Assembly (NCBI GenBank): GCA_023246225.1
Contig: JAHFIV010000001.1
Span: 46-64,045 of the forward strand
Source: a bacterium
GTDB lineage: Bacteria; Patescibacteriota; Patescibacteriia; SG8-24
Direction of reading: 5' to 3'
Length of the DNA: 64,000 bases
Shown here: positions 15,821 through 48,699 of the stretch, in pieces
How positions within the stretch are numbered: position 1 is the first letter of the stretch
Layout: each line of letters begins with the position of its first letter
Notes under the pieces: generated by a model
What the model was told of the DNA's origin: nothing
Seen by the model: the letters and a program-made list of their open reading frames with translations, nothing else
The model's database searches: none
Position numbers and translations under genes: made by a program

Positions 15821-16256
15821 AAAAATCTAAAAACGATAGAACGATAGAAACGATCTTTTTATAGCCTTTGAAGATTAAAAGAGGGTTAAGAAGAGGGTAG
15901 TAGAGAGGTATAGAGATAGAAAAATCATCGTTTTGATCGTCCTATCGTCATGGAAAGGTTCTTCCGACTGAAAACTTGATTCAAATCAACCTCCTAAAGT
16001 TGAGTAAGAACTCATTCCAAGGCGAACCTCAGCCAAATAACAAAGATTACAAGATTCATATCTTAGTTTAATAGGTTTAAAACCTATGATTAGGACAACG
16101 CACCGTGCGCGACTAGACAAAAGACTAATTAATTGATTTTTAATCAATTTTAAACCATCAAAATAATCTGTTAAAGTAAGCAACGTTGACCAGAAGCGGT
16201 CAGATGACACCACTTGTTATCACCGCTCTCCAGCCGTTGCACTTTAACAACTTAAT

Positions 16257-16499
16257 ATGACCACCGATTCCACAAAAAATAACGATACGAGTATCCATGA
16301 GTATCTCAATGTGAAAGAGTTTGCTGCCGCTTTAAGACTTTCTGTAACCAGTTGTTACCGTCTTGTGCAACAAAGGCTCATTCCTTTCCATCGCTTACGA
16401 GGAGGACTCAGATTTCATCAAAAGGATGTCGATGCTTACTTCAAAGCATGCCGCGTGGAGTCGGTGACGAGGAAAGATTATGAGTGCAAGAAGGAATAA
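16257..16499 (+). CDS. excisionase/AlpA-like HTH DNA-binding protein
   Basis: An 80-aa ORF with an HTH (LNVKEFAAALRLSVTSCYRLVQQRLIPFHRL). Overlaps the integrase start. Confidence 0.6.
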   Translation: MTTDSTKNNDTSIHEYLNVKEFAAALRLSVTSCYRLVQQRLIPFHRLRGGLRFHQKDVDAYFKACRVESVTRKDYECKKE

Positions 16500-17595: not shown

Positions 17596-17660
17596 CACCT
17601 CCTCTCACCGCCAGTTTCTTGCAAAAATAAGGCTAAAAATGTAGTATGGCGATACAACGT

Positions 17661-17748
17661 GGAGGGGTGGCCGAGAGGTTTAAGGCAACAGTCTTGAAAA
17701 CTGTCGTTCTGAAAGGAACCGTGAGTTCGAATCTCACCCCCTCCGCCA
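17661..17748 (+). tRNA. tRNA-Ser(TGA): tRNA-Ser (anticodon TGA)
   Basis: Manually folded cloverleaf: acceptor stem GGAGGGG/CCCCTCC, anticodon loop CTTGAAA, long variable arm, T-loop GTTCGAATC, discriminator G, encoded CCA. 88 nt. Confidence 0.85.
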
Positions 17749-23184: not shown

Positions 23185-24216
23185 TTAAAAATTGAAGAGC
23201 GGAGGAAGATATCCTGCCGCAACAAGACTGTTCGTGATGTTGAAGAGCGCAAACAAGATAACGATCAATCCTGCGGTCTTGAAGAACACACCTTTGCGCG
23301 CACTTTTCTCCACGCTGAACGAACTGAAACTGATAAGCGCAAGAACTGGCAACGTGCCGAGCGCGAATGAAAGCATCGTCAGTCCTCCTTTCAGAAAACT
23401 TCCAGTCGAGAGCGTGTAAATCTGCATGGATTGCGTGAAACCACACGGGAGAAAAAACGTCGCGATGCCGACGAGTAGTGGCGTCAGCCGATGGTTCATC
23501 TTATGAAGACTTGTGACTCGTCGCGAGACGAACTTCGGCATCGATATCTGCCATCGTTTCGTCCAATCAAAAACATCGAGAAGGTTGACCCCGAGCACGA
23601 GCATAACAAAACCGATCACGAGACCAAGGATCAATGATGCAACGCCGCGCAGTTGGAACGCTGATCCAACCGCACCGATCACCCCTCCGAGCAAAAAAAA
23701 CGAAACGATTCTCCCGCCATGAAAGAGAAGTTGCGGCCTCACCTTGTCACCTTCTTTTGCGAACGTCGCAGAGAGAGAAAGCAGGAGTCCGCCAACAACC
23801 GCCATGCACGTGGAAAGCGAAGCGATGATACCGATGACAAACGCTGTGCCGTAGGAGACTTTTGTTGCGGTCACAAGATTGACCAGACCGATCTTCTGCA
23901 ATGCAAGGAAGATGATAACAAAGGCGAATGTGATCGGAACGGCATACTTGAAGTCGCTCCAATTCTTTTTTTGTATCGGCTTGTCGACCGATAGTGCGTA
24001 TCCGTTTTTTTCGAGAACACGCGTAAGTTCCTCTGCGATCTGCGCCGGTGATCTCTCGCCGAAATTACCGGTCACCTCTATGGTGTTCGTCGCTAAACTT
24101 GATTTCGCAAACATCACATGGGGAAGATCCTGCAGTTCACTCTCTGTCATCAAAATGCAGGCGTTGCAATGCATGCCCGTCACATGAAAAGTAACGGTTT
24201 TATTTTTTTCTTCCAT
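23185..24216 (-). CDS. HMA-domain protein fused to a CcdA/DsbD-like (or TauE-like) polytopic membrane domain
   Basis: N-terminal heavy-metal-associated motif GMHCNAC. At least 6 TM segments, with paired TM cysteines (STCMAV and FLPCGF). Confidence 0.65.
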   Translation of the reverse strand: MEEKNKTVTFHVTGMHCNACILMTESELQDLPHVMFAKSSLATNTIEVTGNFGERSPAQIAEELTRVLEKNGYALSVDKPIQKKNWSDFKYAVPITFAFVIIFLALQKIGLVNLVTATKVSYGTAFVIGIIASLSTCMAVVGGLLLSLSATFAKEGDKVRPQLLFHGGRIVSFFLLGGVIGAVGSAFQLRGVASLILGLVIGFVMLVLGVNLLDVFDWTKRWQISMPKFVSRRVTSLHKMNHRLTPLLVGIATFFLPCGFTQSMQIYTLSTGSFLKGGLTMLSFALGTLPVLALISFSSFSVEKSARKGVFFKTAGLIVILFALFNITNSLVAAGYLPPLFNF

Positions 24217-24221
24217 AGAAT

Positions 24222-26489
24222 CTACAACGACTTCGTTTTAAGTCGAAGCGAATTGCCGACAACCGATACGCTTGAGAACGCCATCGCGAGCCCGGCGAAG
24301 GCGGGATTCAGCAGCCAACCAAATATCGGGTAGAACAGCCCCGCAGCAAGTGGAATACCGATGATGTTATAGATGAACGCCCAAAACAAATTCTGTTTAA
24401 TGCCACGCATCGTTATTTTGGAAAGCTTGATCGCTTTCACGAGCTTAGAAATATCACCATGAAGAAGAGTGACGCCAGCAGATTCTATCGCGACGTCCGT
24501 TCCGGTCGCCATCGCGATGCCGACATCCGCCTGCGCGAGCGCTGGCGCATCGTTCACGCCGTCCCCTGCCATCGCAACAACATGGCCACCTGACTGAAGC
24601 GTCTTAATCTTTTCGAGCTTCCCTTCGGGTAGCACCCCAGCGACCACTTCATCGATACCGACCTGCTCTGCGATGTACTTCGCTGTGTTGTGATCGTCAC
24701 CGGTGAGCATCACCACAGTGATGCCGAGTTTGTGGAGCCGAGAGATCGCTTCTTTGGCTTCGGGTTTGATCGCATCAGCCACAAAAAATACGCCGAGCAA
24801 AGCATCTTTCGATGCGAGCATCACCGGTGTTTTTCCTTCTCGCGTCTCGCGCTCAAGAGCTGCGGTATCGAATGTGCGCCCGAGCGATGTCATCAATTTT
24901 ACATTCCCGGCGTAATATTCGTGTCCATCGATCATCCCTCGCAATCCTTGTCCTTTTATCGCTTCAAAATTTTCGACAGGTCGCAGCGACAGTCGCTTGT
25001 TCTCGGAATATTTCACAATGGCGTTCGCGATCGGATGTTCAGATTTTTTTTCGAGCGAGGCGAGAATTGCAACAAGTTCGTCATCGCTCTTCTTCGACAA
25101 GTTGCGGATGGAAATCAATTCGGGATTGCCTTTCGTGATCGTCCCTGTCTTGTCGACAACGACCGTATCAACCTTGTGCAACTTTTCCAAAATCGCCGCA
25201 TCTTTAATAAGAATGCCTTCCTTTGCGCCCTTGCCCACACCAACGATGATCGCGGTCGGCGTCGCAAGACCGAGCGCGCACGGACAAGCGATAACGAGCA
25301 CGCCGACAAAGGAGACGAGGCCACTCGATAACGCTTGGGAAAAACCGAGGTATCTCGTTCCGATGATCAGCCAGAATGCGAGCGTGGCAAAAGCAACAGC
25401 GAGCACTGTCGGCACGAATATCGAGGAGATCTTGTCTGCGAGGGCCTGAATCGGCGCCTTGCTCCCCTGCGCTTCTTCGACCATCTTGATGATACGCGCA
25501 AGCATCGTCTCTGCGCCGACCTTCGTCGCTTTGAACATGAAAGCGCCGCTGGTGTTCATCGTTCCAGAAATCACGAAATCACCAACAGATTTTTTTACCG
25601 GCATCGGCTCACCAGTGACGACAGCCTCGTCCACATACGACGATCCTTCTGTGACTGTGCCGTCGACAGGGATGCGGCCCGCAGGTTTCACAACGATGAC
25701 ATCGCCATGAACAACTTGCTCGACGGGGATCGCAATTTCTTTTCCGTCGCGCACAACCACCGCGATTTTTTCCTGCAAATTCAGCAACTTCTCGATCGCA
25801 TCGCCCGTTTTTATTTTTGAACGAGCCTCAAGATATTTACCGAGCGAAATAAATGCGATCACTACGATCGTCACATCATAATACACATGCGCCGTGTTGA
25901 TGAACGGTTTGAGTGCGTCCTCGAACGCGTTCACGATGAAACTATACAGGTACGCCGCCGACGTACCGATGCCGATGAGTGTGTCCATGTTCGCTTTGCC
26001 GTAGCGGAGAAAACGATACACGCCGAGCAGATACGGTTTTCCCACGACGAACAACGCGTACGTCGCCATGAGTGGCATCAGGTGATGGAAAAATTCGCTC
26101 CAAAAATAAGGAATCGCAGGAAGCGCACCGAGCTGCGCCACGATTTCCCATGTCATGATGACGATACTGATCGCGGCGAGCGGCATAATCGACAAAACTT
26201 TCGTGCGCATGCCTGCAACTTCCATCATTTTCTCGCGCTTTGATTGATCCACACCCGCGTGCATGGAATGATCTTGTGAAAGTATGAATGAGTACCCGAG
26301 CGGTTCGATTTTTTTTGATATCTGCTGCGGATGTATCTTTGCAGCATCAAACGAAATCTTTGCGGTTTCGGTGCCGTAGTTTACCTCTGCTGAATTCACC
26401 CCGTCCGTTTTTTTGAGCGTCTTCTCGATGATGCCTGCGCAAGAAGCGCAGTGCATGCCCTTGACCTTGTAGGTCGCTGAACTGTCCAT
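24222..26489 (-). CDS. copA: copper-translocating P1B-type ATPase
   Basis: N-terminal HMA GMHCASCAG. TM CPC motif (ACPCALGLATP). Phosphorylation site DKTGTIT. Hinge GDGVNDAPAL. Confidence 0.95.
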   Translation of the reverse strand: MDSSATYKVKGMHCASCAGIIEKTLKKTDGVNSAEVNYGTETAKISFDAAKIHPQQISKKIEPLGYSFILSQDHSMHAGVDQSKREKMMEVAGMRTKVLSIMPLAAISIVIMTWEIVAQLGALPAIPYFWSEFFHHLMPLMATYALFVVGKPYLLGVYRFLRYGKANMDTLIGIGTSAAYLYSFIVNAFEDALKPFINTAHVYYDVTIVVIAFISLGKYLEARSKIKTGDAIEKLLNLQEKIAVVVRDGKEIAIPVEQVVHGDVIVVKPAGRIPVDGTVTEGSSYVDEAVVTGEPMPVKKSVGDFVISGTMNTSGAFMFKATKVGAETMLARIIKMVEEAQGSKAPIQALADKISSIFVPTVLAVAFATLAFWLIIGTRYLGFSQALSSGLVSFVGVLVIACPCALGLATPTAIIVGVGKGAKEGILIKDAAILEKLHKVDTVVVDKTGTITKGNPELISIRNLSKKSDDELVAILASLEKKSEHPIANAIVKYSENKRLSLRPVENFEAIKGQGLRGMIDGHEYYAGNVKLMTSLGRTFDTAALERETREGKTPVMLASKDALLGVFFVADAIKPEAKEAISRLHKLGITVVMLTGDDHNTAKYIAEQVGIDEVVAGVLPEGKLEKIKTLQSGGHVVAMAGDGVNDAPALAQADVGIAMATGTDVAIESAGVTLLHGDISKLVKAIKLSKITMRGIKQNLFWAFIYNIIGIPLAAGLFYPIFGWLLNPAFAGLAMAFSSVSVVGNSLRLKTKSL

Positions 26490-28494: not shown

Positions 28495-29226
28495 GAGCGT
28501 AATCCCCCACACACTTCCTGCTCCCGATTTTTTTAAAATTCTTGCGCATTCTTGTAATGTTGCTGACGATGTCGCCACGTCATCGATCAGAACGTAACGA
28601 CCGCCCTCGCGCACACGAGAAGTGACGTGAAAAATGCCGACCACGTTCTCGGTTCTTGCGCGACGATCTTGAATCGCCGCTTGCGACTGCCGACCATGAC
28701 TTCGACGTAAGAGATTCATCGCAACCGACGCATGCATCACTTTTCCAAACGACCGCGCAAGCGCTTCTGATTGATTGAACCCGCGCGTGGCACGACGAAA
28801 AAAAGCGAGCGGCACCGGAATAATTTTTGCGTCCTGCGCAACGATACCCATGAGTGCTCGGTGGCGCTCAATAAACAGAGAAAAAATTGTCTGCAATGTT
28901 CGTCCTGCAGCTTCGACCCTTTCGTACTTCCACAGCTGCAATAAACGCCGTAGCGTTCGATCGCTGTACGGTGCAACAGAGAGAAGACCGTCGAGTGGTG
29001 CCGCGCGACACTTGCGCGCATCACACGCAACACCGAGCGGGGTCGCTGTTCCGCAGAGCGCGCAAGCAAAAAGCCCCTTTCGGGGGCTTTTCAATTCTTC
29101 GAAACATTCGCTGCAGAGCACCTCGCCTTCTTTTTCACACGCGACGCAGTGATGAGGAAATAACGCGCGAAAAAAGAGATCGATCACGCCGGGTTTCACT
29201 TCCACGTTGCGGAATTCACCTTCCAT
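28483..29226 (-). CDS. comFC: ComF-family protein (competence protein ComFC-like, phosphoribosyltransferase domain)
   Basis: N-terminal 4-Cys zinc-finger (CVACEKEGEVLCSEC ... CALCG). C-terminal PRTase motif VLIDDVATSSATL. Confidence 0.8.
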   Translation of the reverse strand: MEGEFRNVEVKPGVIDLFFRALFPHHCVACEKEGEVLCSECFEELKSPRKGLFACALCGTATPLGVACDARKCRAAPLDGLLSVAPYSDRTLRRLLQLWKYERVEAAGRTLQTIFSLFIERHRALMGIVAQDAKIIPVPLAFFRRATRGFNQSEALARSFGKVMHASVAMNLLRRSHGRQSQAAIQDRRARTENVVGIFHVTSRVREGGRYVLIDDVATSSATLQECARILKKSGAGSVWGITLLRG

Positions 29227-29816
29227 ACTCCATCTTCTTTCACAAAAGCGATATCAACATCCTGATACTTCACCGTACCGTTCGGTGTGTTCCCCACAAA
29301 CTCCTGCCGTTGTGTCTTCACACTGATCTCCGCTCGACCATCCGCATCTGCAAACGCGGTTGTTGTCGTATTGATTGCGCGAGTGGTGATGCCGTAGTGC
29401 TCCTTCGCGGGCGGCTTACCTTGCTCTTTTGCGATGTAGGCGTCGGTGCGGCCGATCATGCCAGAGCTCATAAATACTTTCAAGGCCACCAAATTTGCGA
29501 AGTCGTTGTCAAGATTTGAGTAGCTACCATAACGTTCCGCAAACGCTGCGGCGAGTCGACCGAGGTTTGCTTCAGCGGCGGGTTTTGGAGCCTGAGTCGT
29601 CACGGGATGCGTCACTGGAGCCGGTGCAGTATTCACCGAGGTGGTCGTACCAGTGTTCAACAAAAAAGTATTAGGCGTGCCGCTCGTCGCGTTCACCGCT
29701 TGGTTCGTTGCGGGAGTCGACGTGGTGTGCCGACCCAAAAACAACAACAACAGTAACAAAAGTACGAGGATGATCGCGGCGATAATAATTTTTGTGCGGC
29801 GAGGCATGGGAGACAA
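29196..29816 (-). CDS. bitopic membrane-anchored protein (VirB8-like placement)
   Basis: N-terminal TM anchor (IIIAAIILVLLLLLLLFLG), Thr/Pro-rich linker, globular C-terminal domain. Immediately downstream of VirB4. Confidence 0.4.
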   Translation of the reverse strand: MSPMPRRTKIIIAAIILVLLLLLLLFLGRHTTSTPATNQAVNATSGTPNTFLLNTGTTTSVNTAPAPVTHPVTTQAPKPAAEANLGRLAAAFAERYGSYSNLDNDFANLVALKVFMSSGMIGRTDAYIAKEQGKPPAKEHYGITTRAINTTTTAFADADGRAEISVKTQRQEFVGNTPNGTVKYQDVDIAFVKEDGVWKVNSATWK

Positions 29817-31712
29817 TTATTTTTCCAATGACGCTTCGTACTCCTTCTTCGCAGCTTCGATTTCAAGAAGTTGTTGTGGATTTGTAGTGACTACTTGATC
29901 TTCTGCATATGATGCCACCACCTTGATCGCCGCGTGTTTGTTTCCCGCAAAGAAAATTCCTTCACCGACGCCACACTCAAGTAACAAATACTTTTCACCT
30001 TCTGTGAGCAAAAACGTTTTTGCGATATTATCGATCGCCGCCGGTGATTGCTTGAGCAGTAACTGCATGGCGGAGTTCGTCACAATCGCCTGACCGTACG
30101 TATTGCGAAGGAAGTCGTTCACGTCCTGCGTGATCGTCGTGACACCGAGATAATATTTTCGACAACGCTTCACGAGTGCAAAGATGAACTTCGCAGAGTC
30201 CTCGTTTTGCATCAGCCACCACGCTTCGTCAATAACTAAGATACGTTTCTTTCGTTCAGACCGAACGGTGTTCCAGATGTAGTTCACGATCGCATAAATA
30301 CCGAGAGGGCGTAGCTCATCTTCAAGGTCACGCACAGAAAAAGTAACGAGTGTATTCTTCATCGCGACAGTGGTTGGCGAATTGAACAACCCCGCAAACG
30401 TTCCTTCTGTGAACTTTTTAAGGCGAATAACGAGATCTTTTGTGCCTTCCATACCCTCGAGCACATCCACGAAATCTTGAATGATCGGTGGTTCAACTGT
30501 TGCGAGATCAGAGTCAGGAGTAATATCTTTTTTTGCGTACGTTTCAAGAAGCGCACGATCAAGAATGGAATCCTCTTGCGCTGTGACAGCACCGAGCATG
30601 ATACGCAGCAATCCTTTCACGGTGATCACCGCGCTACGAATAATGTCCTCTGTCGTGACCTGCTCTCCTATCGCTCGTGGCAAATCAAACGGATTAATCT
30701 TCGCTTCTGAAGCGAGCGATACATTGATGTACGTTCCACCAACCGCATCAGAAAGATGTTTGTATTCCATTTCTGGGTCGATCACGATCACTTCGGTGCC
30801 GAGCATGAGCGAGCGAAGAATTTCTAGCTTCACTGTGTAGGATTTTCCTGCGCCCGATGTTGCAAACACGATGTAATTCGCATTTTGCATCGAAAACCTA
30901 TCAAACAAAATCAAACTGTTATTGTGACGATTCACTCCGAACAGCACACCGTTATCTGAAGTGAGATCTGCAGAAATAAAAGGAAACGACGATGCGACCG
31001 GCGAGGAGTTCATGTTGAACGTGATCATTAGCTCGTCATTTCCTTGAGGAACTGTCGAGTTAAAACCTTGCTCAGACTGATAAAATACTCGCTTCGTGTA
31101 AATCAACTTCCCACCGAACAATGATTCGACTTCTTCGGACAGTCGGTCTAGTTCTTTTTTGTCTTTCGCGTACACGGTGACGTACAACGCGAACTGGAAA
31201 AAATGCTCAGTCCCCTGCGAAAGCGAGTCGCGCAATTCTTCGATGTCGCGAAGTGCGGTTTCTCGAATCGGATCGCGCGGCGAGCCCTTCTCGTTATCAG
31301 AAAGAATCTGCGCTTCAAGCGTACCGACTTTTTTCTTGAGTTGTTTCAAAATGACTTCCGGTTTCACTGGATAGAAAAACATCGCAATATCCAGCGGATA
31401 GTTCAAGTTGACGATCGGTGCGAACCAACCGAGTGAGATGTAACGCGGATACGTCACCACAAAAATCGTTCGCACGTAACTTTCGTTCAACACTAAATAG
31501 GTCGGCTCGATTTTAAAACCTGCAGGCGCGACGATATCTTTAATGGAGACAACGCCCTTGCGATAAATCCGTTCCTCTTCGAGCAGTTCTTTTTCTTTTG
31601 CAAGTGTTGCAGTTTCTACGACTCGTTTTTGTGCCGTTCCTGAAAGTTTCCGCGGTGTTTGCGGAACGTTCACTGGTTCGAGTGATCCAATTTTTCCTGG
31701 TTCAAATGCCAT
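29817..31712 (-). CDS. VirB4/TrbE/CagE-family type IV secretion ATPase (ATPase portion)
   Basis: Walker A GAGKSYTVK and Walker B ILVIDEAWW. Conserved C-terminal TQDVNDF region. 631 aa. Confidence 0.9.
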   Translation of the reverse strand: MAFEPGKIGSLEPVNVPQTPRKLSGTAQKRVVETATLAKEKELLEEERIYRKGVVSIKDIVAPAGFKIEPTYLVLNESYVRTIFVVTYPRYISLGWFAPIVNLNYPLDIAMFFYPVKPEVILKQLKKKVGTLEAQILSDNEKGSPRDPIRETALRDIEELRDSLSQGTEHFFQFALYVTVYAKDKKELDRLSEEVESLFGGKLIYTKRVFYQSEQGFNSTVPQGNDELMITFNMNSSPVASSFPFISADLTSDNGVLFGVNRHNNSLILFDRFSMQNANYIVFATSGAGKSYTVKLEILRSLMLGTEVIVIDPEMEYKHLSDAVGGTYINVSLASEAKINPFDLPRAIGEQVTTEDIIRSAVITVKGLLRIMLGAVTAQEDSILDRALLETYAKKDITPDSDLATVEPPIIQDFVDVLEGMEGTKDLVIRLKKFTEGTFAGLFNSPTTVAMKNTLVTFSVRDLEDELRPLGIYAIVNYIWNTVRSERKKRILVIDEAWWLMQNEDSAKFIFALVKRCRKYYLGVTTITQDVNDFLRNTYGQAIVTNSAMQLLLKQSPAAIDNIAKTFLLTEGEKYLLLECGVGEGIFFAGNKHAAIKVVASYAEDQVVTTNPQQLLEIEAAKKEYEASLEK

Positions 31713-31713
31713 A

Positions 31714-32418
31714 TTATACCGTGGTGATTTCTTCGGTCACCCGAATTTTGGACTGATCGACCATTTTTTCATTGTCGTACAAATCAGGGTTGTACACGCG
31801 ATAGTACAGCTCGATAAGACTTTGCGTATCGAGTTGCACCGCCTTGAGACCCATGCTCCCGAGCGACCCCTGGATGTGGTCGACGCGCGTCTGAAGATCG
31901 TTCTTACGCTGACGAAATCGTGACTCCGCGAGTCGTACAGACAAGGCTGGAGTAAACGCTTCTGACAAGCGAGAAAAAAATCCTTTTGCTTTGTCGGAGA
32001 GTGGGTTGTATGGCACCACCACAAAAAATTGTTTCTGCATGATCTGTCCGAGGGTCACCAGTTCTTGCACGAAACTTCGGTAGTCCGCGATCTGAAATCG
32101 TAACAATTCGTTCGTTTGATTTTTTTGAGATTCCTTTAAGCGCTCGAGATACGTATCGATATTCAATTTTCGTGATTGGATGACGATCTGCAGTGGAAAT
32201 TCGAGTGCATTTAAAAAACCGATGTACGCAGAAATAATCGCGTTCTGCTCATCCTCTGATTTGAGTGCGAAGTTGATGCTCGCAACGAGAAGCACTGCGC
32301 GCATCGTGCCATCTTTCATAATGACGACATCTTCTTTGATTTCGTTGATATCCAAATACCGCTGGGTCGCCGGACCCGGCTTTGCTCCTGCGAGTTTTTT
32401 GGATTGCATTTCTGGCAT
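31714..32418 (-). CDS. VirB4 N-terminal domain encoded as a separate ORF (split VirB4)
   Basis: VLLVASINFALKSEDEQNAIISAYIGFLNALEFPLQIVIQSRKLNID resembles the N-terminal domain of Gram-positive VirB4 (PrgJ/TcpF-like). Its stop TAA is followed after 1 nt by the ATG of the VirB4 ATPase ORF. Confidence 0.55.
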   Translation of the reverse strand: MPEMQSKKLAGAKPGPATQRYLDINEIKEDVVIMKDGTMRAVLLVASINFALKSEDEQNAIISAYIGFLNALEFPLQIVIQSRKLNIDTYLERLKESQKNQTNELLRFQIADYRSFVQELVTLGQIMQKQFFVVVPYNPLSDKAKGFFSRLSEAFTPALSVRLAESRFRQRKNDLQTRVDHIQGSLGSMGLKAVQLDTQSLIELYYRVYNPDLYDNEKMVDQSKIRVTEEITTV

Positions 32419-32496: not shown

Positions 32497-32928
32497 TCAA
32501 TCAGCGTCAGGGTTGTACACACCACCAGTGTTCACCACAAGAGAAAGTTCGGTGAGTTTCGTTGCGGCGAGCGGTTCTTTTCTAATACGCACCACTGGCG
32601 GAGCCGGCGGTGGCGCTTTGATGATCTCACGCAACTCACTGTCGGTGTACTCTTTGTCCCACAATCGAAGGCTCGGGCGGCGCACGGTCTGCACCAGATT
32701 CAAACAAAAAAAATGAAACGGCTGACCGTTCACGCGCAAAAAAGCAAAAATTCCACCAATCATAATGGTTGGAATACCTGTTGCGAGAAACGCAGTGAAA
32801 TCGAAAAGTTTATATTCAATGAACATGACAAACGACGTGGCGAGCATCAAAAGAAACTGTCGAACGGTGAGTGGTCCGAGGATTTTATCCTCCACATCGA
32901 TGAACTGCGGGACAGTGAACTTGTTCAT
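32497..32928 (-). CDS. PrgI/VirB3-like small membrane protein
   Basis: The N-terminus FIDVEDKILGPLTVRQFLLML plus 2 TM segments is typical of PrgI-family proteins that precede VirB4 in Gram-positive-type T4SS. Confidence 0.55.
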   Translation of the reverse strand: MNKFTVPQFIDVEDKILGPLTVRQFLLMLATSFVMFIEYKLFDFTAFLATGIPTIMIGGIFAFLRVNGQPFHFFCLNLVQTVRRPSLRLWDKEYTDSELREIIKAPPPAPPVVRIRKEPLAATKLTELSLVVNTGGVYNPDAD

Positions 32929-35141: not shown

Positions 35142-37787
35142 TCATTCTATCGAGTTTTTTATTTCAGCAATTTGTGCTGCCAGCTCTCCAATCTGCTTTT
35201 CCATTGTAGCATCCAGCGCGCTCGAATTCTTCATCGCGGTAATTTTTCTGAGATTATTTTTTAATACTTTGAGTTTTGCTATGGCTTGCTCTGAAAGCGT
35301 GCCGGAAGGACCACTTTCAAGAGTATCGATCGCTGTTAATGTTTTGTTGGCACCCTTACGAGCTGCTGCAAACTTTTCATCGGGCGATAGCGGCGCCATC
35401 GATCTTCCAAATTCATTTTCAGCATTACCAAAGCTGGTCCTTCCGCGTTCGATTGCTTTATTCATCGCATTACGTTCCGCTGGTGAGAGATTGCCTCGCT
35501 GAATAGCTTGTGCTAAACCCTCCGCTGCAGAAGCAAGACGATTCGCTGCGGCGATAGGACTCGTTGCAGACTGTACCGCAGCTAGCTCTTCGGCGATCTT
35601 GCCGGTTCCATCTCCACCCATGTCCGCATATTGTTTTGCAAGATCTGCCGCTTGTTTTTTAACGGTATCAAGATCAACGCCGGCACTAGCGCCACCAGAA
35701 TCTTCCTCATGCGCACGTGCTAATTGCTCCGTGTCCGCAAGAAGTTTTGTGGCGTTGGGATCTTTTGCCAACATTTTTTCATTGCGTTCTTGATCGACCG
35801 TTGCCCGCTCAATAGGGTTGGTCGCCACTCTATTTAACTCATCAATCTTCTTCTCGTTCTCAACACCTCCTGCCTCTTCAAGCATCTTAAGAATTTTTTG
35901 TTGATCCTTATCTGAATATTTCTCAAATTGATTCGCGTCAATATTTTTCAGGTATGTACTCTGAAATTCTCCTTTCCTTTCAAGCGCGGCGAGTTGTTTT
36001 TCTGGTCCAGCCCTCCGGAACCAACTTGCCGCCTTGTCGGCATTTTCAAATGCCGCGTCCTGATTTCCGCCCGCAGCGAGCGCTTTGTCAAATTGCTTCA
36101 CCGTATCTTTATCTTTTTCAGTATAGGCAAGAATTGGCTTGCCCTCCTCATCCTTTTTTACATTTCCGTTTTCATCTTTCACCTCAACCCGAACAATACC
36201 CATAACGTCTTTGAGAAGTTTTGCCTTGCCTTCTGGCCCAAGATTTTTCATTGAATCCGCACCTCGTTCAGCGTTCACAAGCATCGCTGCTTGGCGGTCA
36301 ACTTTTGAAGCTTTCTCGTCGCGTATGGTCTTCTCGTTCTCTTGCGTACTCTTGGTGTTTTCCTTCGCCTTTTCGGCAGCCAACCTATCAACCGCAGCCC
36401 GACGCTTTGCAGGGTCCGAAATATTAGCAATGTCACGCTTCTTTTCACGCGCTTCGGTAAATTTTTTGTCCATTCCTATAAATCTTCCAAACCCGGATTC
36501 CGTGAGCTTTTGTTTGTAGCCACGACCCATCGAAGCGAGACTTTGACGTTCGCCTGTCACTGGATCTTTTGCGCTAAGTATTCCCGCATTCGCTGCAGCA
36601 CCGCCCGCGAACTTCCCGAGACTCACTGCTCCTCTTTTGAGTTTCTGTGCGACTTTCTGTGCCATGCCTCCGCTTTCCGCGGCCATTTGCGATGACATTT
36701 TATATCCTGCCGCGAGCAAGACGATCATCACAATGAAACTTTTCACTTGATTGAAATCGCCAAATTGCGTGACGCCTGCGCTGAATGTTTCTGCCGCGCT
36801 TTGCGATGAGGTGAACCCGCTATCTAACTGATTTCCTGAAGCGACAAGGAGCGCGAGCCAAAGCACAAACGCCATGATCGGACCGAAGACGACTTGCCCG
36901 GTAAATTTTTTCCACCACTCTGCGTAGTATCCTGACGCAGCTTTTGTCGGCACCGCGCGAAGAAAAAACGCGAGTGGTGAGAGCACGATCAGCAGCCACA
37001 GAGTGACGATGCGTGCGATCAGTGAAAGCGACAGGACGATCAAAATTCCGCACGATACCGCAAGCGCGATCACTGCGAGTACGGAGGATATAACGATGCC
37101 GAGTGAAAACTTGAGGGGGTCAGATTCACCTATCGCTTTAAGCGTATCTTTGAGTGCAGATGCTGACGGCGAAAGAAGTTGAGTAAGATGCAAACCGTTC
37201 GCAAAGTTTCCACCTGCCGCTTCTTTGAAACCGTAGACGAACGTGAGCATCACCACCTGACCGAAGTCGATCAGCACTCCGCAGATCGTTCTCGTGAAGT
37301 TCACGAGCACCGCCATGATCAGCAGGCTCGAAAGGTTTTTATTTTTATAGCTGTACTGATCGACGCCGAGCATCGTGCCGAATGCGATGAGTAGCAGCAC
37401 CAAAATAAAAAACATGTTGGTGACATCGCGCACGATCGTCCAACCGTTCGTGACCACGGCTGCGTTCACGAAGTCGTTATACTGCGCAACGCTCACGAGA
37501 ATGCTCACGAGTCCGAGCATTAGTTGCCCAAGTACCATCACGATCACTTGGAGGATGTTCGCTATCAGGAGGAGGACGAAGCTGCCCATGAAGTTTCCTC
37601 CTGCAGCTGCTGCTCCGGACTTTACAGCGGCGTAGCCCGCCGCAGCAACAACAACCGGACCAAGAGCCTGTACCGGCCGTGCAGCAATAAACAAGAAAAC
37701 AAAAGAAAAACACGCGCACACGACATGCCGTCTGTTATCGCTTATCCAGCGAAAAAATTTTGCGGACTTTTCCCTCAAAAAAGGCAT
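35142..37787 (-). CDS. VirB6/TrbL-like polytopic membrane protein with ~500-aa charged coiled-coil C-terminal extension
   Basis: N-terminal signal. At least 7 TM segments in the first ~380 aa. Lies between the giant surface protein and the VirB3/VirB4 genes. No certain sequence signature. Confidence 0.5.
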   Translation of the reverse strand: MPFLREKSAKFFRWISDNRRHVVCACFSFVFLFIAARPVQALGPVVVAAAGYAAVKSGAAAAGGNFMGSFVLLLIANILQVIVMVLGQLMLGLVSILVSVAQYNDFVNAAVVTNGWTIVRDVTNMFFILVLLLIAFGTMLGVDQYSYKNKNLSSLLIMAVLVNFTRTICGVLIDFGQVVMLTFVYGFKEAAGGNFANGLHLTQLLSPSASALKDTLKAIGESDPLKFSLGIVISSVLAVIALAVSCGILIVLSLSLIARIVTLWLLIVLSPLAFFLRAVPTKAASGYYAEWWKKFTGQVVFGPIMAFVLWLALLVASGNQLDSGFTSSQSAAETFSAGVTQFGDFNQVKSFIVMIVLLAAGYKMSSQMAAESGGMAQKVAQKLKRGAVSLGKFAGGAAANAGILSAKDPVTGERQSLASMGRGYKQKLTESGFGRFIGMDKKFTEAREKKRDIANISDPAKRRAAVDRLAAEKAKENTKSTQENEKTIRDEKASKVDRQAAMLVNAERGADSMKNLGPEGKAKLLKDVMGIVRVEVKDENGNVKKDEEGKPILAYTEKDKDTVKQFDKALAAGGNQDAAFENADKAASWFRRAGPEKQLAALERKGEFQSTYLKNIDANQFEKYSDKDQQKILKMLEEAGGVENEKKIDELNRVATNPIERATVDQERNEKMLAKDPNATKLLADTEQLARAHEEDSGGASAGVDLDTVKKQAADLAKQYADMGGDGTGKIAEELAAVQSATSPIAAANRLASAAEGLAQAIQRGNLSPAERNAMNKAIERGRTSFGNAENEFGRSMAPLSPDEKFAAARKGANKTLTAIDTLESGPSGTLSEQAIAKLKVLKNNLRKITAMKNSSALDATMEKQIGELAAQIAEIKNSIE

Positions 37788-38099: not shown

Positions 38100-41000
38100 C
38101 TATGGCAGTGGGGGGTACACCTCGATCGTTCCTGCGAAACTTGTCCAGGGGTTAGTCTTGTCGGGCGGAATCTGCACGCATTCATCCGCAGCACCGGTGT
38201 TGTTCATGCAAAGATTACCGAGGCCTCCGTTTCCAGGACATGTTCCGTTACACGTCTGCCAGTTATCCATAATCTGCACGCGTGGTTTAAACACACAGGC
38301 GGTGTGTGCATTGTTCACGCAATCGGTAACGATACCTTTGCTCTTGTCGCACTCCTGTTTATCAGCGATGAGTTTGGCAAGTTTTTCCTTACTGCACGTA
38401 TACGTATGCGTCTCCTCAAAAAACTCGCTCTGGCACTGTTTTCCACCACCCCATCCGAGCGCAGGATCATCACAAATCTTCTTACTGCTCCCCCCACCAA
38501 GGTTGATGCTGCCACGGCGGTTCTTGTACCAACCGGTCAACTCAAGAATTTCCAAATTATCACCCCAATCAACGATCTTATGCCGAATTGGCATGTGATC
38601 TCTATCGGCATACGCGTAGTACGTGAGCGTTGCTTTTAACTTACCGCTGTGCGACGCAACCGGCACCGCAGCCATAATTTTATTCACCGTGAGACCCGCT
38701 GGTCCTTCCTGACAATTCCTACTCCCGAAACAGAAACTGTAATCAACGGCAACTACCTTCGGTGCGTTGTGTTCCGTCGCATATCTCTCACGGAAATCCC
38801 AACCGCCGTCACCACCAAGCGCGCGCGCCGTCACGTCAACTTTTGCCAGATCGCCGTTTGCCAAACGGTACGCATCGTAGGACCAACGCGGCTCGTAATC
38901 GGCGCCGCGAGGAACAGTGACGGAAGGATCGGAGGGATTATTCCATAAAGGAGACCCTTGTCGCCACTCATACACATTAAACGCAGCGGCAAAGTACTGA
39001 CTGAGGTGCAACGCGCCGAGTGCGCGCGCGCCGAAACCTGCATTCCTCCACCCTGCATCTGGCGCACCCTTCCCTTTATCGCTGCCGCAATCACCGATGC
39101 ACGCGTATGGCGTCCCTGAAGCTGTAGATCCCGCGTTGAATATGAACTGCCTCTCATTCGGCTTATCTTTTTTCGGTCGAACGTCCACATGCGTGAACAC
39201 ACTGCCTCCCTCCGAGTCGTACACCGGCAAAATTCGGTTCCACACCTTGTTGATCTTCTCATCATCAGGAGCAGCAGGATTGAGACTAAACAAAATGCGA
39301 CCATTCTTTGGATCTGGTGAAAAATCTTCGATCGGTTGGGCGATCGCGCCGTAGGGAATCATTGGAAGCTGGGTCACTCCCACTGCGTTGTGTTGTTGTA
39401 TGTCCGTACCTGCGTTAGAGAATCGATCAGACTTATGATCTTTTTGATACGGCGGCGCGTCAAGATACGCATTCGCGAGCCGATCGGTCCATGCATAATT
39501 TTTAAAATCACTATCGAGCCCACGCGAAACATCGTTCACAAACGCGATCTCTTGGCACCAATCGCGAAGTTCGACATACACCGTTGCGAGGGTATTGGGG
39601 CAATAATCCTTGCTCCCGATAGCCTCTATGGCCTTGAGGAGAGCAGCGCCGATACAAGCCGTGGGATTAAAAAATGGATTAGGAGCAAGAGGAGTGGGCG
39701 GGGTACAGACGCCACCTACGAACGCCTCTGAAAGCTGGGCGCAATGTACTTCATTATTACAACTCACCGTCGCAAACCCTGCGAGCTTACGGTCAACAAA
39801 GTGCGCCCTAATACCGAGCACTGCAAGGTTCATGCAACCACCATCTGCCAACGGCTCGTCGATATCTGTTGTATGAGAATCATTCACCCCCAGCCCCGCA
39901 AATGGACAACTCGTTGAGGCAATAATTTCATGGTTACCTTTGATACTCTCGTCAAAATATTGACCGTTGTCTGGCCCTGGTTCACCTGAAGATTTATTTG
40001 GATAACGGATACAAATGGTCCACTGATTCTTTTCCGTAAGATAGAAATCGAATTTTCTTCCTGAGGCAACCGTACTCTTAAAGTATCCGGCATTTCCAAA
40101 AACATGGATACCGGCGATCTCATCCTCAAACAGATCTCTCTGCGGAAATTTATAAAGATTAGGCTTTGGAGGTGGCGTCGTGTGTACTGGGTACGGTATC
40201 CACTTCGCGTTTACCTTTCCATCATCCAAACCAAGAAGATCCCCAATACCAATTTTACACCCCACAGCTGCATAACATTCATTACTCCACCACCCCCAAC
40301 CGGGCAACCGAGGCACATCGGCCGGTATCGAACCGATCTGATCTTCAATTTTCATTGAATAACTAAGTATCCCAGGTGTACCAACGCGAGTACCTTGCGC
40401 AACCTGGCAATACAAAAGGTTGCCGGAGTTGACATACCCTGCCTCTTCGTTTTGGTTACCGAGGTCGCTCCCTCCGGAGAGCTGATCTTGAGGGAGCCAC
40501 AAGTTGCACGTATGCCGATCGGGGTTTGCGTTCACAAACCGACCAAAATCAGGATCGAGACAGAACCCGTACCAGCCCTTCGCTGTCACGTCTTTTGTCC
40601 AGCGCGAACACACGCCACCCTCGCTACTTACACATGGATCTGTTGCAGCATCCGTTGGCACTGGCCTTGCGCTCGGCACGCAAGTTTTCCCATCATTCGG
40701 TCCACCAACGCATACTCCTTTGTCCTCACCATGAATCCCCGGTGCAAGACGCGGATCGTGCAGCGAAACGTAGCGGACGGTAGTGCCGTTCACGCCATAC
40801 CCAAGCTTGCGATATGAACAATCACACGCATTTTCTTTGGTGCAGATGTTTGCGTTACCAAATCCCGACTTAATTTCCTTCGGAAGGCCGGTGTCATTAT
40901 CATACTTCACCACCACGCTCGGCGGGAAAGGCGCGTCATCTTCAGGATACCCTCGGCAAGAGGGTGCGTTAATGAAGTCGCTACGAAGCGGTCCGCCTTT

Positions 41001-44000
41001 CATGTCATACATGCACAGATTCGCGATGCATTTTCCTTGTGCCTGCGATCCTGCCGGACAATCGTACGTCCCACTGCACCCAAGACTGAGTTTACAATCC
41101 GCATCACTGCGACACTGCCGATTGTTGGTACTGAGCATCGCACCGACGCGCTGCGTTGCCGAGATCGACGCGTTGCAAATACCATCCGAACCGCACTGCG
41201 CGCTCGTATCACACGGCTTGAGTTGTGCGCTGTCGAGCGACGACTCACAGAATCCCACGAATTTTTTTCCACAGCGGAACCCCCACGAGAGCGGATCGCT
41301 CCCTGGCGGGTTGCACGTGCCGTCCGACCAGCACAGTGTATCGTTGAGCGTCCCTGTTTTCTTGTCCGCACATCGTCCCATGCGGAAATCGACCGGAAGC
41401 GCATACTGCGCCGGATACTGGCCGGGAATAGTAAACCCTGAATACTCCACTCCCTTGTAAGTGATGTCGCGCTGCGCATACAGATCCGCGGTGACGCGTT
41501 TTACATTCTCTACTTTTTCAGGACGCTCCACCCAATTACTGCATTCCTGCGACTCACCGAACGTGCGCTGTTCATCGCATGCATCAAATCCGGAACACCT
41601 ATACTTGTATCGTCCGGTTGCCTCATCAGAAACCGCGTCCGTGGATCTACACGTGAGCCACTCTGCACATTCGCGATCCGCACCCACTTTAATAACGATG
41701 TTCGCGTCATTTTTTGTGACGTCGCGCCCCGCGGGACTCACACCCTTCTCTGACAGATCACATTTTTCTTCTTTTCTCTTGTCACAATCGGTGTCCGCCC
41801 CGCATGCAGTCGTGTGCCCACCGTCCACGGAGAAGCACCGACCTTCACAGAACGGACTTCGCGGATCGAGATTGCAGTTGAGCGGGTTCACCTTGCCACC
41901 GTTCACTGTTTTTTCGCTAAGGAAATACGTCGCAGCAGACGCGAACAACCTTGAGGGGTCGCTAGTTTTAGTAAACAACACACACCCTTCTTTGAGCGAA
42001 GCGGAGCCCCCGCACGACGTGAGGTCCAACTTGTTGTTCATGATGTAGTAGTACGGCTTTCCTTTTGGATGCACCTTCGATGTCGCGGCGGGATCAATAA
42101 ATTCTTCGCAACGATCGTACTGCGGATCGCACTGCCCCACCCAACCTTGATACCCACACGTGGTATTGCCGCGCGCAACTCTGCATACTTGCGTCGTGAT
42201 CGGCGGATTCGTGCATCCGCACGTGGACGTCGACGCGTCCCATCCGATCGTGGTCGGTCCGCACGTCAAACCGTCCGGCAGCTGGCAGAGCGCGTCGGCA
42301 TTTTTATACAAATTGTAGAATTCACCGTTCTGCAACAACTCTGGATAGCACGGAATATCTTTTCCTGCAGCGCTCGCCCGGAACCAACCGTAGCTCGCAG
42401 TGCCGCTAATGTTTACTCCTTCTTTATATTGGCACGTGCGATCGAACGGCTCTTTGAAATAATACTTTCCGTCGATCGCAGTGAACTCTTCGCAAGAAAT
42501 CGCCGGTTGCGTACACAAAGTTTGCCCGTACTGCGCGGGATCATCTTTGAGCGCTTTGACGTTCCAATTTCCTGGCACGCCGTTTTCAAACGAGAGCGTG
42601 CAGGTGCTCAGTCCTTTTGCGACCGTACAGTTTGCGTTAAATATCGGTCCGCATGTGCATCCCGACGCATCGTCGCACTTGCCCGCAACGATCCCCGCTC
42701 CGACGTTCGGGAGCGTGCACTCGCGTTCGTAAGTGATCTGCGGATTCGCGACGCTCTTGCAACCGATCGCTGTCGCCGCGCAAAGATTCTCACTGCGCGC
42801 AACGAGGAACCGACGATCGTCCGCAGAAACGTTTACGCGATCAGGATGCGAAGATTGCGGAGTGTTGTCGTCCCATCCATCGAGTTTGAACTGGCATGCG
42901 TTCTCTCCGATCGCGACGCGGCAGATATCCGCGATATCCGGAACGTTATCGGTGTACCAAGGATGGCGCACGTTGTAGTCGCACTTACAGTTCGACGCTT
43001 CATCTGCGACAACCGCGCAATCTTTCGCGCCTTTCGCGACAATACAAGAATTGATGCCATCGTTACATGCGCACGACGCTCCCAAACATGTGGCACCTCC
43101 CGCGAGCGTGCATTTTCCACATGTACGCGGCTCCGGCGTTGCTCGTTTATCAACGAGCTGACACACCGCGTTATACGATTCCTCGTACGGTGTCTGCACG
43201 TTGTTTTGTGTGAACGAGTACGCCTGACAACCGACCGCTTTGTCGCGACACAACTGTGCGAACGATCGCAGATATGCTTTTTTATTTGCACTGTTCGTGT
43301 ACTCCTTACACCCCAACATCTCTTGTGGCGACGGCACGCCAGCGAGCGTTTGGTCGCACGCTGCGGGCGTGTTCCACGAATCGCGAACGACGTACAAATT
43401 TTCTGGAACTTCTTTTACGATAACGTTATCGATGTACGCTTCGCCAACACCGGATTTGGCGAACACGAGGCTCGTCGGCGCAGTGCCCCACAGAGGATCG
43501 ACCGCGCTCACCGGACCGAGTGAATACTGTTTCCAGTCCGCTCCGAGCGTAAGCGTCGGCGCAGACGTTGTGGTGTCGGCATCACTAAAATGCAGACTGA
43601 GCGGCTTATCTGGCGCTGTCGTCCCTTTCTTTGCAACAACACAATCGGATTTCATTTTTTCGACAAGACACACGAGCCCTGTAGGCGAGACGCATCCGCA
43701 ACCCGCGTCCTGATCGCACACCGTTTTGTTTGTACACGTGACATCTTCTGCGCCATCTTCAAAGCCGATGTCGAGCGTGCCGCTTCCCCGCGCCCAGAAC
43801 GTGAGTGTATAGCTGCGACCCGCAGCGACCGTACCGCCAACTTCTTTTGTCGCGGTCACGGATCCTGGAGCGAACTTCAACGAGTGTCCGCCGACAATCA
43901 CGGATTCTGATGACTGCTTCACATCCTTGCTCATCCACGCATCGACACCAGCCTCAAACGTGTCGCGCACAATACTCCGCACGTTGCTCGACGCGTTTCC

Positions 44001-48625: not shown

Positions 48626-48699
48626 ATGATAAAGAGACCTCAGAGGTTCCCTTATGAAAAGTATACCATGCGAATAAGGGGTGGTCGACCTTACTGTGT

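What the first reader, a model, noticed from the sequence alone, without database searches (positions are those of the whole stretch)
31700..32418. VirB4 split into an N-domain ORF and an ATPase ORF at a TAA-T-ATG junction
The 234-aa ORF carries the VirB4 N-terminal-domain-like motif (VLLVASINFALKSEDEQ...). Its TAA stop at 31714-31716 is followed after a single base by the ATG of the 631-aa Walker-A/B ATPase ORF. Three explanations are possible: a genuine two-gene VirB4 as seen in some Gram-positive-type systems, a recent frameshift (pseudogenisation), or a homopolymer sequencing error in an AT-run (ATATTATACC region).
Basis: seen in the sequence. Interest (0 to 1): 0.5.

Follow-up and report, generated by a model that had tools for sequence, protein, structure and literature searches.

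The report
Native two-gene VirB4 (TrsD-like plus ATPase)

Summary
On the minus strand, a 234-aa ORF (31714-32418) ends in TAA. One base later comes the ATG of a 631-aa Walker-A/B ATPase (29817-31712).

The split is native and old.
- Eight independent metagenome assemblies carry the identical junction.
- In 77 diverged Patescibacteria genomes the small ORF always ends in a stop. All three stop codons occur, the spacer runs from -19 to 348 nt, and all three relative frames are about equally common. No single indel could restore one frame.
- None of the 150 nearest cluster representatives of the small protein is fused to an ATPase. None of the 120 nearest ATPase homologues is fused to the small protein.
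- Both genes show low dN against saturated dS.

The two proteins tile collinearly onto fused VirB4 models and onto a real 866-aa fused Clostridium botulinum plasmid protein. The break lies inside the VirB4 N-terminal domain, not at the border between that domain and the ATPase.

The small protein belongs to the TrsD/TraD ("TraC-like", PF26593) family. The same PrgI/VirB3 - TrsD - VirB4 order occurs in pSK41 and other Bacillota plasmids.

Quinonero-Coronel et al. 2025 (PMC12102498) already report TrsD homologues beside virB4 as the most abundant type IV secretion component in Patescibacteria.

Verdict: real, functional, already known, low interest.

The parts
31714..32418 (-). ORF-A, 234 aa: a TrsD/TraD-like ('TraC-like', PF26593) protein, equivalent to the first subdomain of the VirB4 N-terminal domain. 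It is soluble, with no predicted TM segment.
   Evidence: NCBIfam hits: residues 19-160 match conju_CD1110 VirB4 profile 2-145/752, residues 18-135 match VirB4_plasma 104-233/894 (E 7.9e-12), and TrsD/TraD NF041427 gives E 2.3e-6. PF26593 is precomputed for the identical protein P0001. hhalign to pSK41 TrsD gives prob 84%. hhalign to residues 64-228 of a fused 866-aa VirB4 gives prob 94.5%.
32245..32295 (-). Conserved motif VLLVASINFALKSEDEQ (ORF-A residues 42-58).
   Evidence: These are invariant columns in the 42-sequence alignment. The same block aligns to TrsD of pSK41 and to the fused C. botulinum VirB4.
31710..31716 (-). Gene junction TAA-T-ATG: the stop of ORF-A, one spacer base, then the start of ORF-B.
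   Evidence: Read directly from the sequence. It is identical in 8 independent assemblies. One-nucleotide spacers recur in relatives L013, L016, L023, L030 and L071.
29817..31712 (-). ORF-B, 631 aa: VirB4-type ATPase lacking the first ~150 positions of full-length VirB4. It has a variable N-terminal linker, then the second half of the N-terminal domain (~60-250), then the ATPase domain (250-609).
   Evidence: conju_CD1110 profile 152-730/752 at 336.8 bits, above the 325-bit cutoff. P-loop_TraG, AAA_10, DUF87 and CagE_TrbE_VirB hits. PDB 4AG5 VirB4 C-terminal domain E 2.7e-47, and TrwK residues 446-740. BLASTP to residues 283-853 of the fused 866-aa VirB4, E 6e-56.
30840..30863 (-). Walker A (ATSGAGKS, ORF-B residues 284-291).
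   Evidence: G287, A288, G289, K290 and S291 are invariant. The block aligns to the P-loop of 4AG5 and TrwK.
30225..30245 (-). Walker B (RILVIDE, ORF-B residues 490-496).
   Evidence: R490, I491, L492, D495 and E496 are invariant.
32497..32928 (-). PrgI-family (VirB3-like) small membrane protein, 143 aa, immediately upstream of ORF-A.
   Evidence: Pfam PF12666 PrgI at 28.2 bits against a cutoff of 27. The same gene sits upstream of the TrsD-like gene in public contigs and in Bacillota plasmids.
35142..37787 (-). 881-aa polytopic membrane protein with a long charged C-terminal half. It is a candidate VirB6-like translocon subunit (inferred).
   Evidence: No HMM hit. There is weak BLASTP similarity (E 2e-5 over 334 aa of the TM region) to the 779-aa protein at the equivalent position of the Pontibacillus plasmid cluster.
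32965..35126 (-). Two cluster genes of unknown role (307 aa and 412 aa, the latter Pro-rich), abutting each other by one base between the 881-aa gene and the PrgI-like gene.
   Evidence: ORF list. No Pfam hit.
29196..29816 (-). 203-206-aa protein directly downstream of ORF-B: an N-terminal TM helix, a Thr/Pro-rich linker and a ~110-aa C-terminal domain. VirB8-like architecture is a guess only.
   Evidence: ORF list. It is called as a gene directly after the ATPase in all public contigs. No Pfam hit.

Best explanation
This is the normal two-gene form of VirB4 in the chromosomal, monoderm-type (MPF-FATA-like) type IV secretion system of a Patescibacteria (Uhrbacteria/ABY1-like) genome.

ORF-A is a TrsD/TraD-family protein that corresponds to the first subdomain of the VirB4 N-terminal domain. 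ORF-B is the remainder of VirB4: the second half of the N-terminal domain plus the Walker A/B ATPase domain.

Shown:
- The two proteins tile collinearly onto fused VirB4.
- The break sits in a poorly conserved linker.
- The split layout is conserved across Patescibacteria and occurs in Bacillota and Actinomycetota plasmids.
- Both genes show low dN against saturated dS.

Inferred:
- The genes are co-transcribed in the order PrgI/VirB3 - TrsD-like - VirB4.
- The 1-nt TAA-T-ATG spacing couples their translation, with the ribosome terminating and re-initiating. This would favour near-equimolar synthesis.
- The two polypeptides reassemble non-covalently into a complete VirB4 N-terminal domain. In fused systems that region mediates dimerisation, membrane embedding and contacts with VirB3 and VirB8.
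- ORF-A would thus dock the ATPase hexamer onto PrgI/VirB3 and the membrane translocon.
For: - Junction read directly and identical in 8 independent assemblies.
- Profile tiling: ORF-A matches CD1110 profile 2-145 and ORF-B matches 152-730.
- Tiling on a real fused 866-aa protein: the ORF-A family matches residues 64-228 (prob 94.5%, E 8e-8) and ORF-B matches 283-853 (E 6e-56).
- 77 diverged loci have stop codons TAA 41, TAG 22, TGA 14; spacers of -19..348 nt (median 16, 32 of them <=10 nt); relative frames 28/24/25.
- ORF-A has 6267 homologues; the best 120 are all 225-251 aa.
- The 150 nearest 50%-identity cluster representatives are 116-443 aa and none matches ORF-B.
- The 120 nearest ORF-B homologues are 571-666 aa.
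- dN is 0.07-0.28 with dS saturated; the one estimable omega is 0.08.
- The same gene order occurs in pSK41 (trsC-trsD-VirB4, 14-nt gap), Pontibacillus, C. botulinum pRSJ2_3 and C. difficile BI1 plasmids.
- Literature: TrsD homologues are the most abundant T4SS component in Patescibacteria. 1,664 of 2,272 lie next to virB4, they show remote homology to the VirB4 N-terminus, and the homologue is essential in S. epibionticum ML1 (PMC12102498).
- The role of VirB4 N-terminal domains in dimerisation, membrane embedding and VirB3/VirB8 contacts comes from PMC12857230.
Against: - No structural confirmation. The AlphaFold2 models of both proteins are poor (pLDDT 55.7 and 47.8).
- The Foldseek top hits to TrwK/VirB4 chains are not significant (E 0.6).
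- hhalign of the ORF-A family against TrwK is insignificant (prob 2.3%).
- ORF-A scores far below the curated NCBIfam cutoffs (27.6 vs 200 bits for TrsD).
- Physical association of ORF-A with ORF-B or PrgI, and translational coupling, were not tested. This genome hardly uses Shine-Dalgarno sequences, so the lack of one before ORF-B says nothing.
- Many TrsD homologues carry long disordered C-terminal tails. This hints at roles beyond simple domain complementation.
Confidence: 0.88

Rival explanations
1. Recent frameshift: a formerly single virB4 gene was broken by a 1-nt indel and is decaying (pseudogenisation).
For: Stop and start are only 1 nt apart and the two ORFs are in different frames. 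A fused 866-aa form exists in one C. botulinum plasmid.
Against: All 77 relatives at 55-88% identity have the split, with spacers of -19 to 348 nt and all three relative frames. No fused form appears among the nearest 150 ORF-A cluster representatives or the 120 nearest ORF-B homologues. dN is low with dS saturated in both ORFs. ORF-B starts with a conserved MAF.P N-terminus.
Confidence: 0.01
2. Sequencing or assembly error in an AT-rich run created an artificial stop and frame change.
For: The junction is AT-rich (TATAATATG).
Against: There is no homopolymer at the junction. Eight contigs assembled independently from different ENA and Logan samples have the identical junction. Diverged genomes have the same two-gene layout.
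Confidence: 0.01
3. Programmed ribosomal frameshifting or stop bypass at TAA-T-ATG makes a full-length fused VirB4 in addition to the two separate products.
For: The ORFs are adjacent and 1 nt out of frame. Fused and split forms are both viable in C. botulinum plasmids.
Against: There is no conserved slippery sequence. Spacer length, stop codon and relative frame are not conserved among relatives, with frames 28/24/25 and spacers up to 348 nt. This is incompatible with a conserved recoding signal.
Confidence: 0.01
4. ORF-A is an independent accessory factor: a diverged duplicate of the VirB4 N-terminus rather than the missing piece. ORF-B would be a self-sufficient VirB4.
For: ORF-B keeps ~250 residues ahead of the ATPase domain, including a CagE_TrbE_VirB match. 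Many TrsD homologues have long disordered tails. In Gracilibacteria the TrsD genes are not next to virB4 (PMC12102498). No function is assigned to TrsD.
Against: ORF-B alignments to full-length VirB4 models begin only at profile position ~152 (CD1110) or later, while ORF-A covers 2-145. Both map collinearly and without overlap on a fused protein. A 25-nt indel converts the split form to the fused form in C. botulinum plasmids at exactly this point.
Confidence: 0.08

Closest known systems
TrsD homologue + VirB4 pair of the Patescibacteria T4SS (Quinonero-Coronel et al. 2025, Microb Genom, PMC12102498; TrsD homologue essential in Ca. Southlakia epibionticum ML1)
   Same: Same lineage; the nearest relatives are Uhrbacteria, Parcubacteria and Patescibacteria MAGs. 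The small TrsD-like gene sits directly upstream of a ~630-aa VirB4, with PrgI/VirB3 upstream. The context is chromosomal, among housekeeping genes. No relaxase hit was seen among the neighbouring proteins that were scanned (not every ORF was scanned).
   Different: Nothing substantive; this window is one more instance. [quoted passage not shown] Here the collinear, non-overlapping tiling and the position of the break inside the N-terminal domain are shown explicitly.
TrsD / TrsE of Staphylococcus aureus pSK41/pGO1 (NCBIfam NF041427 TrsD/TraD family; MPF-FATA pGO1 subclass)
   Same: The gene order is trsC (VirB3-like) - trsD (227 aa) - VirB4 (672 aa) with a 14-nt gap. ORF-A aligns to TrsD residues 33-156 (hhalign prob 84%, E 7.5e-6).
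   Different: pSK41 is a conjugative plasmid with a relaxase and a VirD4 coupling protein in the cluster. The window's cluster is chromosomal and has neither nearby. Sequence identity is very low: ORF-A scores 27.6 bits against the family's 200-bit cutoff.
Full-length (fused) VirB4: CD1110 family, C. botulinum pRSJ10_1 866-aa protein, R388 TrwK (PDB 7O41/8RTB)
   Same: ORF-A plus ORF-B together cover the whole protein in order. The ATPase domain is clearly homologous (4AG5 E 2.7e-47; TrwK 446-740; hhalign TrwK 299-741).
   Different: The polypeptide is broken after roughly the first 150 VirB4 positions. About 80 residues of non-conserved sequence surround the break (the ORF-A tail and ORF-B residues 1-60).
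Other VirB4 N-terminal rearrangements: PrgI+TrsD-like fusion in Embleya plasmid; SCO6880 family; VirB3-VirB4 fusions in some conjugative systems
   Same: They show that the VirB3 / VirB4-N-terminal / ATPase modules are repeatedly fused and split in evolution (PMC12102498).
   Different: In Embleya the TrsD-like domain is fused to PrgI (349 aa) and is separated from the ATPase by another gene. In this window all three are separate genes.

Membership tests
TrsD/TraD - 'TraC-like' (PF26593 / NF041427) family (ORF-A) | Sequence match to the family model. | tested here: met
   PF26593 is recorded for the identical protein P0001 and for all 120 best homologues. NF041427 gives E 2.3e-6 but only 27.6 bits against a 200-bit cutoff, so the protein lies outside NCBI's narrow TrsD definition. 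hhalign to pSK41 TrsD gives prob 84%.
TrsD/TraD - 'TraC-like' (PF26593 / NF041427) family (ORF-A) | A small (~200-270 aa) stand-alone protein encoded between a VirB3-like gene and virB4. | tested here: met
   ORF-A is 234 aa, with PrgI upstream and VirB4 downstream. The same layout occurs in pSK41 and in C. botulinum, C. difficile and Pontibacillus plasmids.
TrsD/TraD - 'TraC-like' (PF26593 / NF041427) family (ORF-A) | Homology to the N-terminal portion of VirB4. | tested here: met
   Matches VirB4_plasma 104-233/894 (E 7.9e-12), CD1110 2-145/752 and PRK13853 15-140/789. Matches residues 64-228 of the fused 866-aa VirB4. The match to TrwK is not significant.
VirB4 ATPase (ORF-B) | Walker A and Walker B motifs in a VirB4-type C-terminal domain. 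| tested here: met
   SGAGKS at 286-291 and ILVIDE at 491-496 are invariant. 4AG5 gives E 2.7e-47. CD1110 scores 336.8 bits, above the 325-bit cutoff.
VirB4 ATPase (ORF-B) | A complete N-terminal domain on the same polypeptide. | tested here: not met
   ORF-B alignments start at CD1110 position 152, TIGR00929 position 236 and TrwK position ~299. The first ~150 positions are supplied by ORF-A.
Patescibacteria MPF-FATA-like T4SS | VirB3/PrgI, TrsD and VirB4 clustered on the chromosome. | tested here: met
   The flanks hold housekeeping genes: KsgA, Sua5, a release factor, GroEL and ComFC-like.
Patescibacteria MPF-FATA-like T4SS | A VirB6-like polytopic protein near virB4. | tested here: inconclusive
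   An 881-aa polytopic protein lies upstream. It has no HMM hit and only a weak pairwise match to its positional counterpart in the Pontibacillus cluster.
Patescibacteria MPF-FATA-like T4SS | VirB2-like pilins; absence of a relaxase or T4CP in the cluster. | not tested
   Small ORFs were not screened for pilins. No relaxase or VirD4 domain appeared among the 30-odd window proteins scanned with Pfam, but the scan did not cover every ORF.
Frameshifted pseudogene / programmed frameshift site | Relatives have one continuous ORF, or the frame relation and a slippery site are conserved. | tested here: not met
   77 of 77 informative loci are split. Frames are 28/24/25 and spacers run from -19 to 348 nt. 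dN is low with dS saturated.

The most novel reading that the evidence does not exclude
Detaching the first VirB4 subdomain as a separate TrsD-like polypeptide may be more than a neutral fission. In about a third of the nearest cluster representatives, TrsD homologues carry 50-220-residue disordered Pro/Gln/Ala-rich C-terminal tails. The free module could act as a tunable adaptor whose stoichiometry or partners (PrgI/VirB3, a VirB8-like protein, other cargo or receptors) differ from the fixed 1:1 arrangement of fused VirB4. That could contribute to the repurposing of the T4SS for the epibiotic lifestyle.
Probability: 0.12. Interest if true: 0.45.

Novelty: already known. Interest (0 to 1): 0.12.

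Why it matters
For annotation, the practical point is that this junction must not be flagged as a pseudogene or 'corrected' into one ORF. It is the standard TrsD-like + VirB4 gene pair of Patescibacteria.

Biologically, it shows that the first subdomain of the VirB4 N-terminal domain can be supplied as a separate polypeptide. The 25-nt indel between two C. botulinum plasmids shows that split and fused states interconvert easily.

This is useful background for structural work on monoderm and Patescibacteria type IV secretion systems. In those systems TrsD has no assigned function, yet its homologue is reported as essential in S. epibionticum. It does not open a new question.

Tried and rejected
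- AlphaFold2 on ORF-A (42-sequence alignment) and ORF-B (41 sequences) gave low-confidence models (pLDDT 55.7 and 47.8), so no structural mapping of the break was possible.
- Foldseek of the ORF-A model against the PDB ranked three R388 TrwK/VirB4 chains first, but at E 0.6 and TM 0.32. This is not significant and is not used as evidence.
- phmmer of ORF-A against PDB sequences gave only chance hits.
- hhalign of the ORF-A family against TrwK was insignificant (prob 2.3%). The short aligned piece (ORF-A 125-150 against TrwK 115-140) does agree with the NCBIfam mapping.
- dN/dS could not be computed for most pairs because dS is saturated. Only dN and one omega value (0.08) are reported.
- I looked for a Shine-Dalgarno motif before ORF-B to argue for or against translational coupling. 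The test is uninformative because almost no gene in the window has one.
- Permissive Pfam scans of the four unannotated cluster proteins found nothing.
Full report
**Observation**

The feature lies on the minus strand. ORF-A (31714..32418, 234 aa) ends with TAA, the complement of 31714-31716. Base 31713 is a single spacer. ORF-B (29817..31712, 631 aa) starts with ATG, the complement of 31710-31712.

The quoted motif VLLVASINFALKSEDEQ is ORF-A residues 42-58 and is the most conserved block of the family. ORF-B has invariant Walker A (SGAGKS, 286-291) and Walker B (ILVIDE, 491-496) motifs. The 'ATATTATACC' string is the plus-strand reading of the junction. It contains no homopolymer.

**What the two proteins are**

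Against NCBIfam, ORF-A residues 19-160 match positions 2-145 of the 752-position CD1110 VirB4 model. They also match VirB4_plasma (E 7.9e-12), PRK13853 VirB4 (positions 15-140) and the TrsD/TraD family (E 2.3e-6). ORF-B residues 21-592 match positions 152-730 of the same CD1110 model at 336.8 bits, above the curated cutoff.

Pfam gives P-loop_TraG, AAA_10 and DUF87 in ORF-B. It also gives a CagE_TrbE_VirB hit at residues 75-202. ORF-B residues 250-609 align to the crystallised VirB4 C-terminal domain 4AG5 (E 2.7e-47) and to TrwK 446-740.

The two ORFs therefore tile one VirB4 end to end. The break falls inside the VirB4 N-terminal domain, after about 150 positions, not at the border between that domain and the ATPase. 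The gene upstream of ORF-A (32497..32928) is a PrgI-family, VirB3-like protein.

**Artefact or recent frameshift?**

No. The exact 234-aa protein followed by the 631-aa protein at the same 1-nt spacing occurs on eight contigs. These were assembled independently from different ENA and Logan samples.

A scan of one genome per GTDB species returned 80 loci at 55-88% identity. In the 77 informative ones:
- ORF-A always ends in a stop (TAA 41, TAG 22, TGA 14).
- The spacer to the VirB4 ATG ranges from -19 to 348 nt (median 16; 32 loci at <=10 nt).
- The relative reading frames are 28/24/25.

No single indel could therefore restore one frame, and no recoding signal is conserved.

ORF-A has 6267 homologues in the 90%-clustered database, and the best 120 are all 225-251 aa. 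In the exhaustive 50%-clustered library there are 2470 hits. The best 150 (35-72% identity) are 116-443 aa and none has any similarity to ORF-B. The longer ones carry Pro/Gln/Ala-rich low-complexity C-terminal tails. The best 120 ORF-B homologues are 571-666 aa.

Pairwise dN is 0.07-0.28 while dS is saturated. The one estimable omega is 0.08.

**Outside Patescibacteria**

- In S. aureus pSK41 the order is trsC (VirB3-like), trsD (227 aa) and a 672-aa VirB4, with a 14-nt gap. The ORF-A family aligns to TrsD (hhalign prob 84%).
- tblastn of ORF-A against plasmids found 63 records, mostly Bacillota.
- Pontibacillus has 274 aa + 621 aa, C. difficile BI1 has PrgI - 322 aa - 640 aa, and C. botulinum pRSJ2_3 has PrgI - 261 aa - 620 aa. 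All of these are split.
- The related C. botulinum plasmid pRSJ10_1 has a single 866-aa protein. The two plasmids differ at the junction by a 25-nt indel that removes the stop and start region.
- On that fused protein, the ORF-A family aligns to residues 64-228 (prob 94.5%, E 8e-8) and ORF-B aligns to residues 283-853 (E 6e-56). This is collinear and non-overlapping.
- An Embleya plasmid has the TrsD-like domain fused to PrgI instead.

**Literature**

Quinonero-Coronel et al. 2025 (PMC12102498) report TrsD as the most abundant T4SS component found in Patescibacteria. They found 2,272 homologues, of which 1,664 are associated with virB4. They describe it as remotely homologous to the N-terminal portion of VirB4, without assigned function, and essential in Ca. 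S. epibionticum ML1.

The 2025 FEMS review (PMC12857230) summarises that VirB4 N-terminal domains link protomers, embed in the membrane, and contact VirB3 and VirB8. The finding is thus a further instance of a published arrangement.

**Mechanism**

Shown: the two-gene layout, the collinear tiling and the conservation.

Inferred:
- The genes are co-transcribed as PrgI - TrsD-like - VirB4.
- The 1-nt spacer gives translational coupling.
- The two polypeptides assemble non-covalently into a complete VirB4 N-terminal domain, with ORF-A providing the membrane-proximal piece that contacts VirB3.

The genome hardly uses Shine-Dalgarno motifs, so their absence before ORF-B carries no information. Structural support could not be obtained. 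The AF2 models were poor, and the Foldseek top hits to TrwK were not significant.

**Context**

The cluster is chromosomal. It is flanked by KsgA, Sua5, a release factor, GroEL and a ComFC-like gene. Upstream it includes an 881-aa polytopic protein that is a candidate VirB6-like subunit. The only support is a weak match to the positional counterpart in Pontibacillus. A 3280-aa giant ORF lies further upstream.

**Verdict**

The feature is real, native and functional. It is already known and of low interest. Two small additions were made here: the break is placed inside the N-terminal domain, and a split/fused plasmid pair differing by a 25-nt indel was identified.

Noticed in passing
L088:4300-4800 vs L091:3806-4306 (C. 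botulinum plasmids pRSJ2_3 and pRSJ10_1): These are two closely related plasmids (about 91% mean column identity over the ~500-nt aligned stretch). One has TraC-family 261 aa + ATPase 620 aa, with an AGGAGG-ATG start overlapping the upstream stop. The other has a single 866-aa VirB4. They differ by a 25-nt indel exactly at the junction. This is a natural split/fused pair that could be used to test whether the covalent link matters.
   Followed up: partly
L092:3123-4172 (Embleya sp. plasmid NZ_CP108778): A 349-aa 'PrgI family protein' contains the TrsD-like domain, so here VirB3 and the first VirB4 subdomain are fused. It is separated from the 643-aa ATPase by an XF1762-family gene. NCBIfam also shows that the SCO6880 family matches ORF-B residues 124-224. 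This suggests yet another break point in actinomycete systems.
   Followed up: no
representatives P0254-P0389: 47 of the 150 nearest TrsD-like cluster representatives are >=280 aa. Most of these carry 50-220-residue Pro/Gln/Ala/Thr-rich low-complexity C-terminal tails; a few are longer at the N-terminus instead. The window's ORF-A has no such tail. The function of the tails is unknown.
   Followed up: partly
window 38100-47942 (-) and 47942-48745 (-): A 3280-aa giant ORF lies directly upstream of the T4SS-like cluster. Its only Pfam hit is a weak CBM_4_9 match at 1324-1390. It is preceded by a 267-aa protein with bacterial TSP3 repeats. Together they are probably a giant surface protein.
   Followed up: no
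window 13523-17748 (+): A Prim-Pol/PriCT primase-polymerase (765 aa) and a tyrosine integrase (371 aa) lie immediately next to the only tRNA in the window (tRNA-Ser-TGA, 17661-17748). This looks like a small integrated mobile element.
   Followed up: partly
window 29196-29816 (-): The 203-206-aa protein right after the ATPase has an N-terminal TM helix, a Thr/Pro-rich linker and a compact C-terminal domain. That is a bitopic architecture like VirB8/PrgL, but it has no HMM hit.
   Followed up: partly
window, all gene starts: Almost none of 34 likely genes has a Shine-Dalgarno-like motif upstream. This genome appears to initiate translation largely without one.
   Followed up: partly
L007, L008, L013, L026 and other loci: Many MAG records holding close homologues are titled 'uncultured Gammaproteobacteria bacterium' (binchicken co-assemblies). 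Others are titled Vicinamibacterales, Acutalibacteraceae or Nanoarchaeota. The locus is otherwise found in Uhrbacteria, Parcubacteria and Patescibacteria, so these record titles look like placeholder names, mislabels or bin contamination.
   Followed up: no
window 23185-26489 (-): A heavy-metal P-type ATPase (HMA + E1-E2 ATPase, 755 aa) is followed by an HMA-DsbD_2 membrane protein (343 aa). This is a metal-handling pair a few kb downstream of the cluster.
   Followed up: no
PMC12857230, section 12 vs L089: The 2025 review says that the pIP501 VirB3 candidate traC is immediately adjacent to the VirB4 gene traE. In pSK41, trsD lies between the VirB3-like trsC and the VirB4 gene. The review text contains no mention of TrsD, so the TrsD/TraD module seems to be overlooked in current T4SS overviews.
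   Followed up: partly
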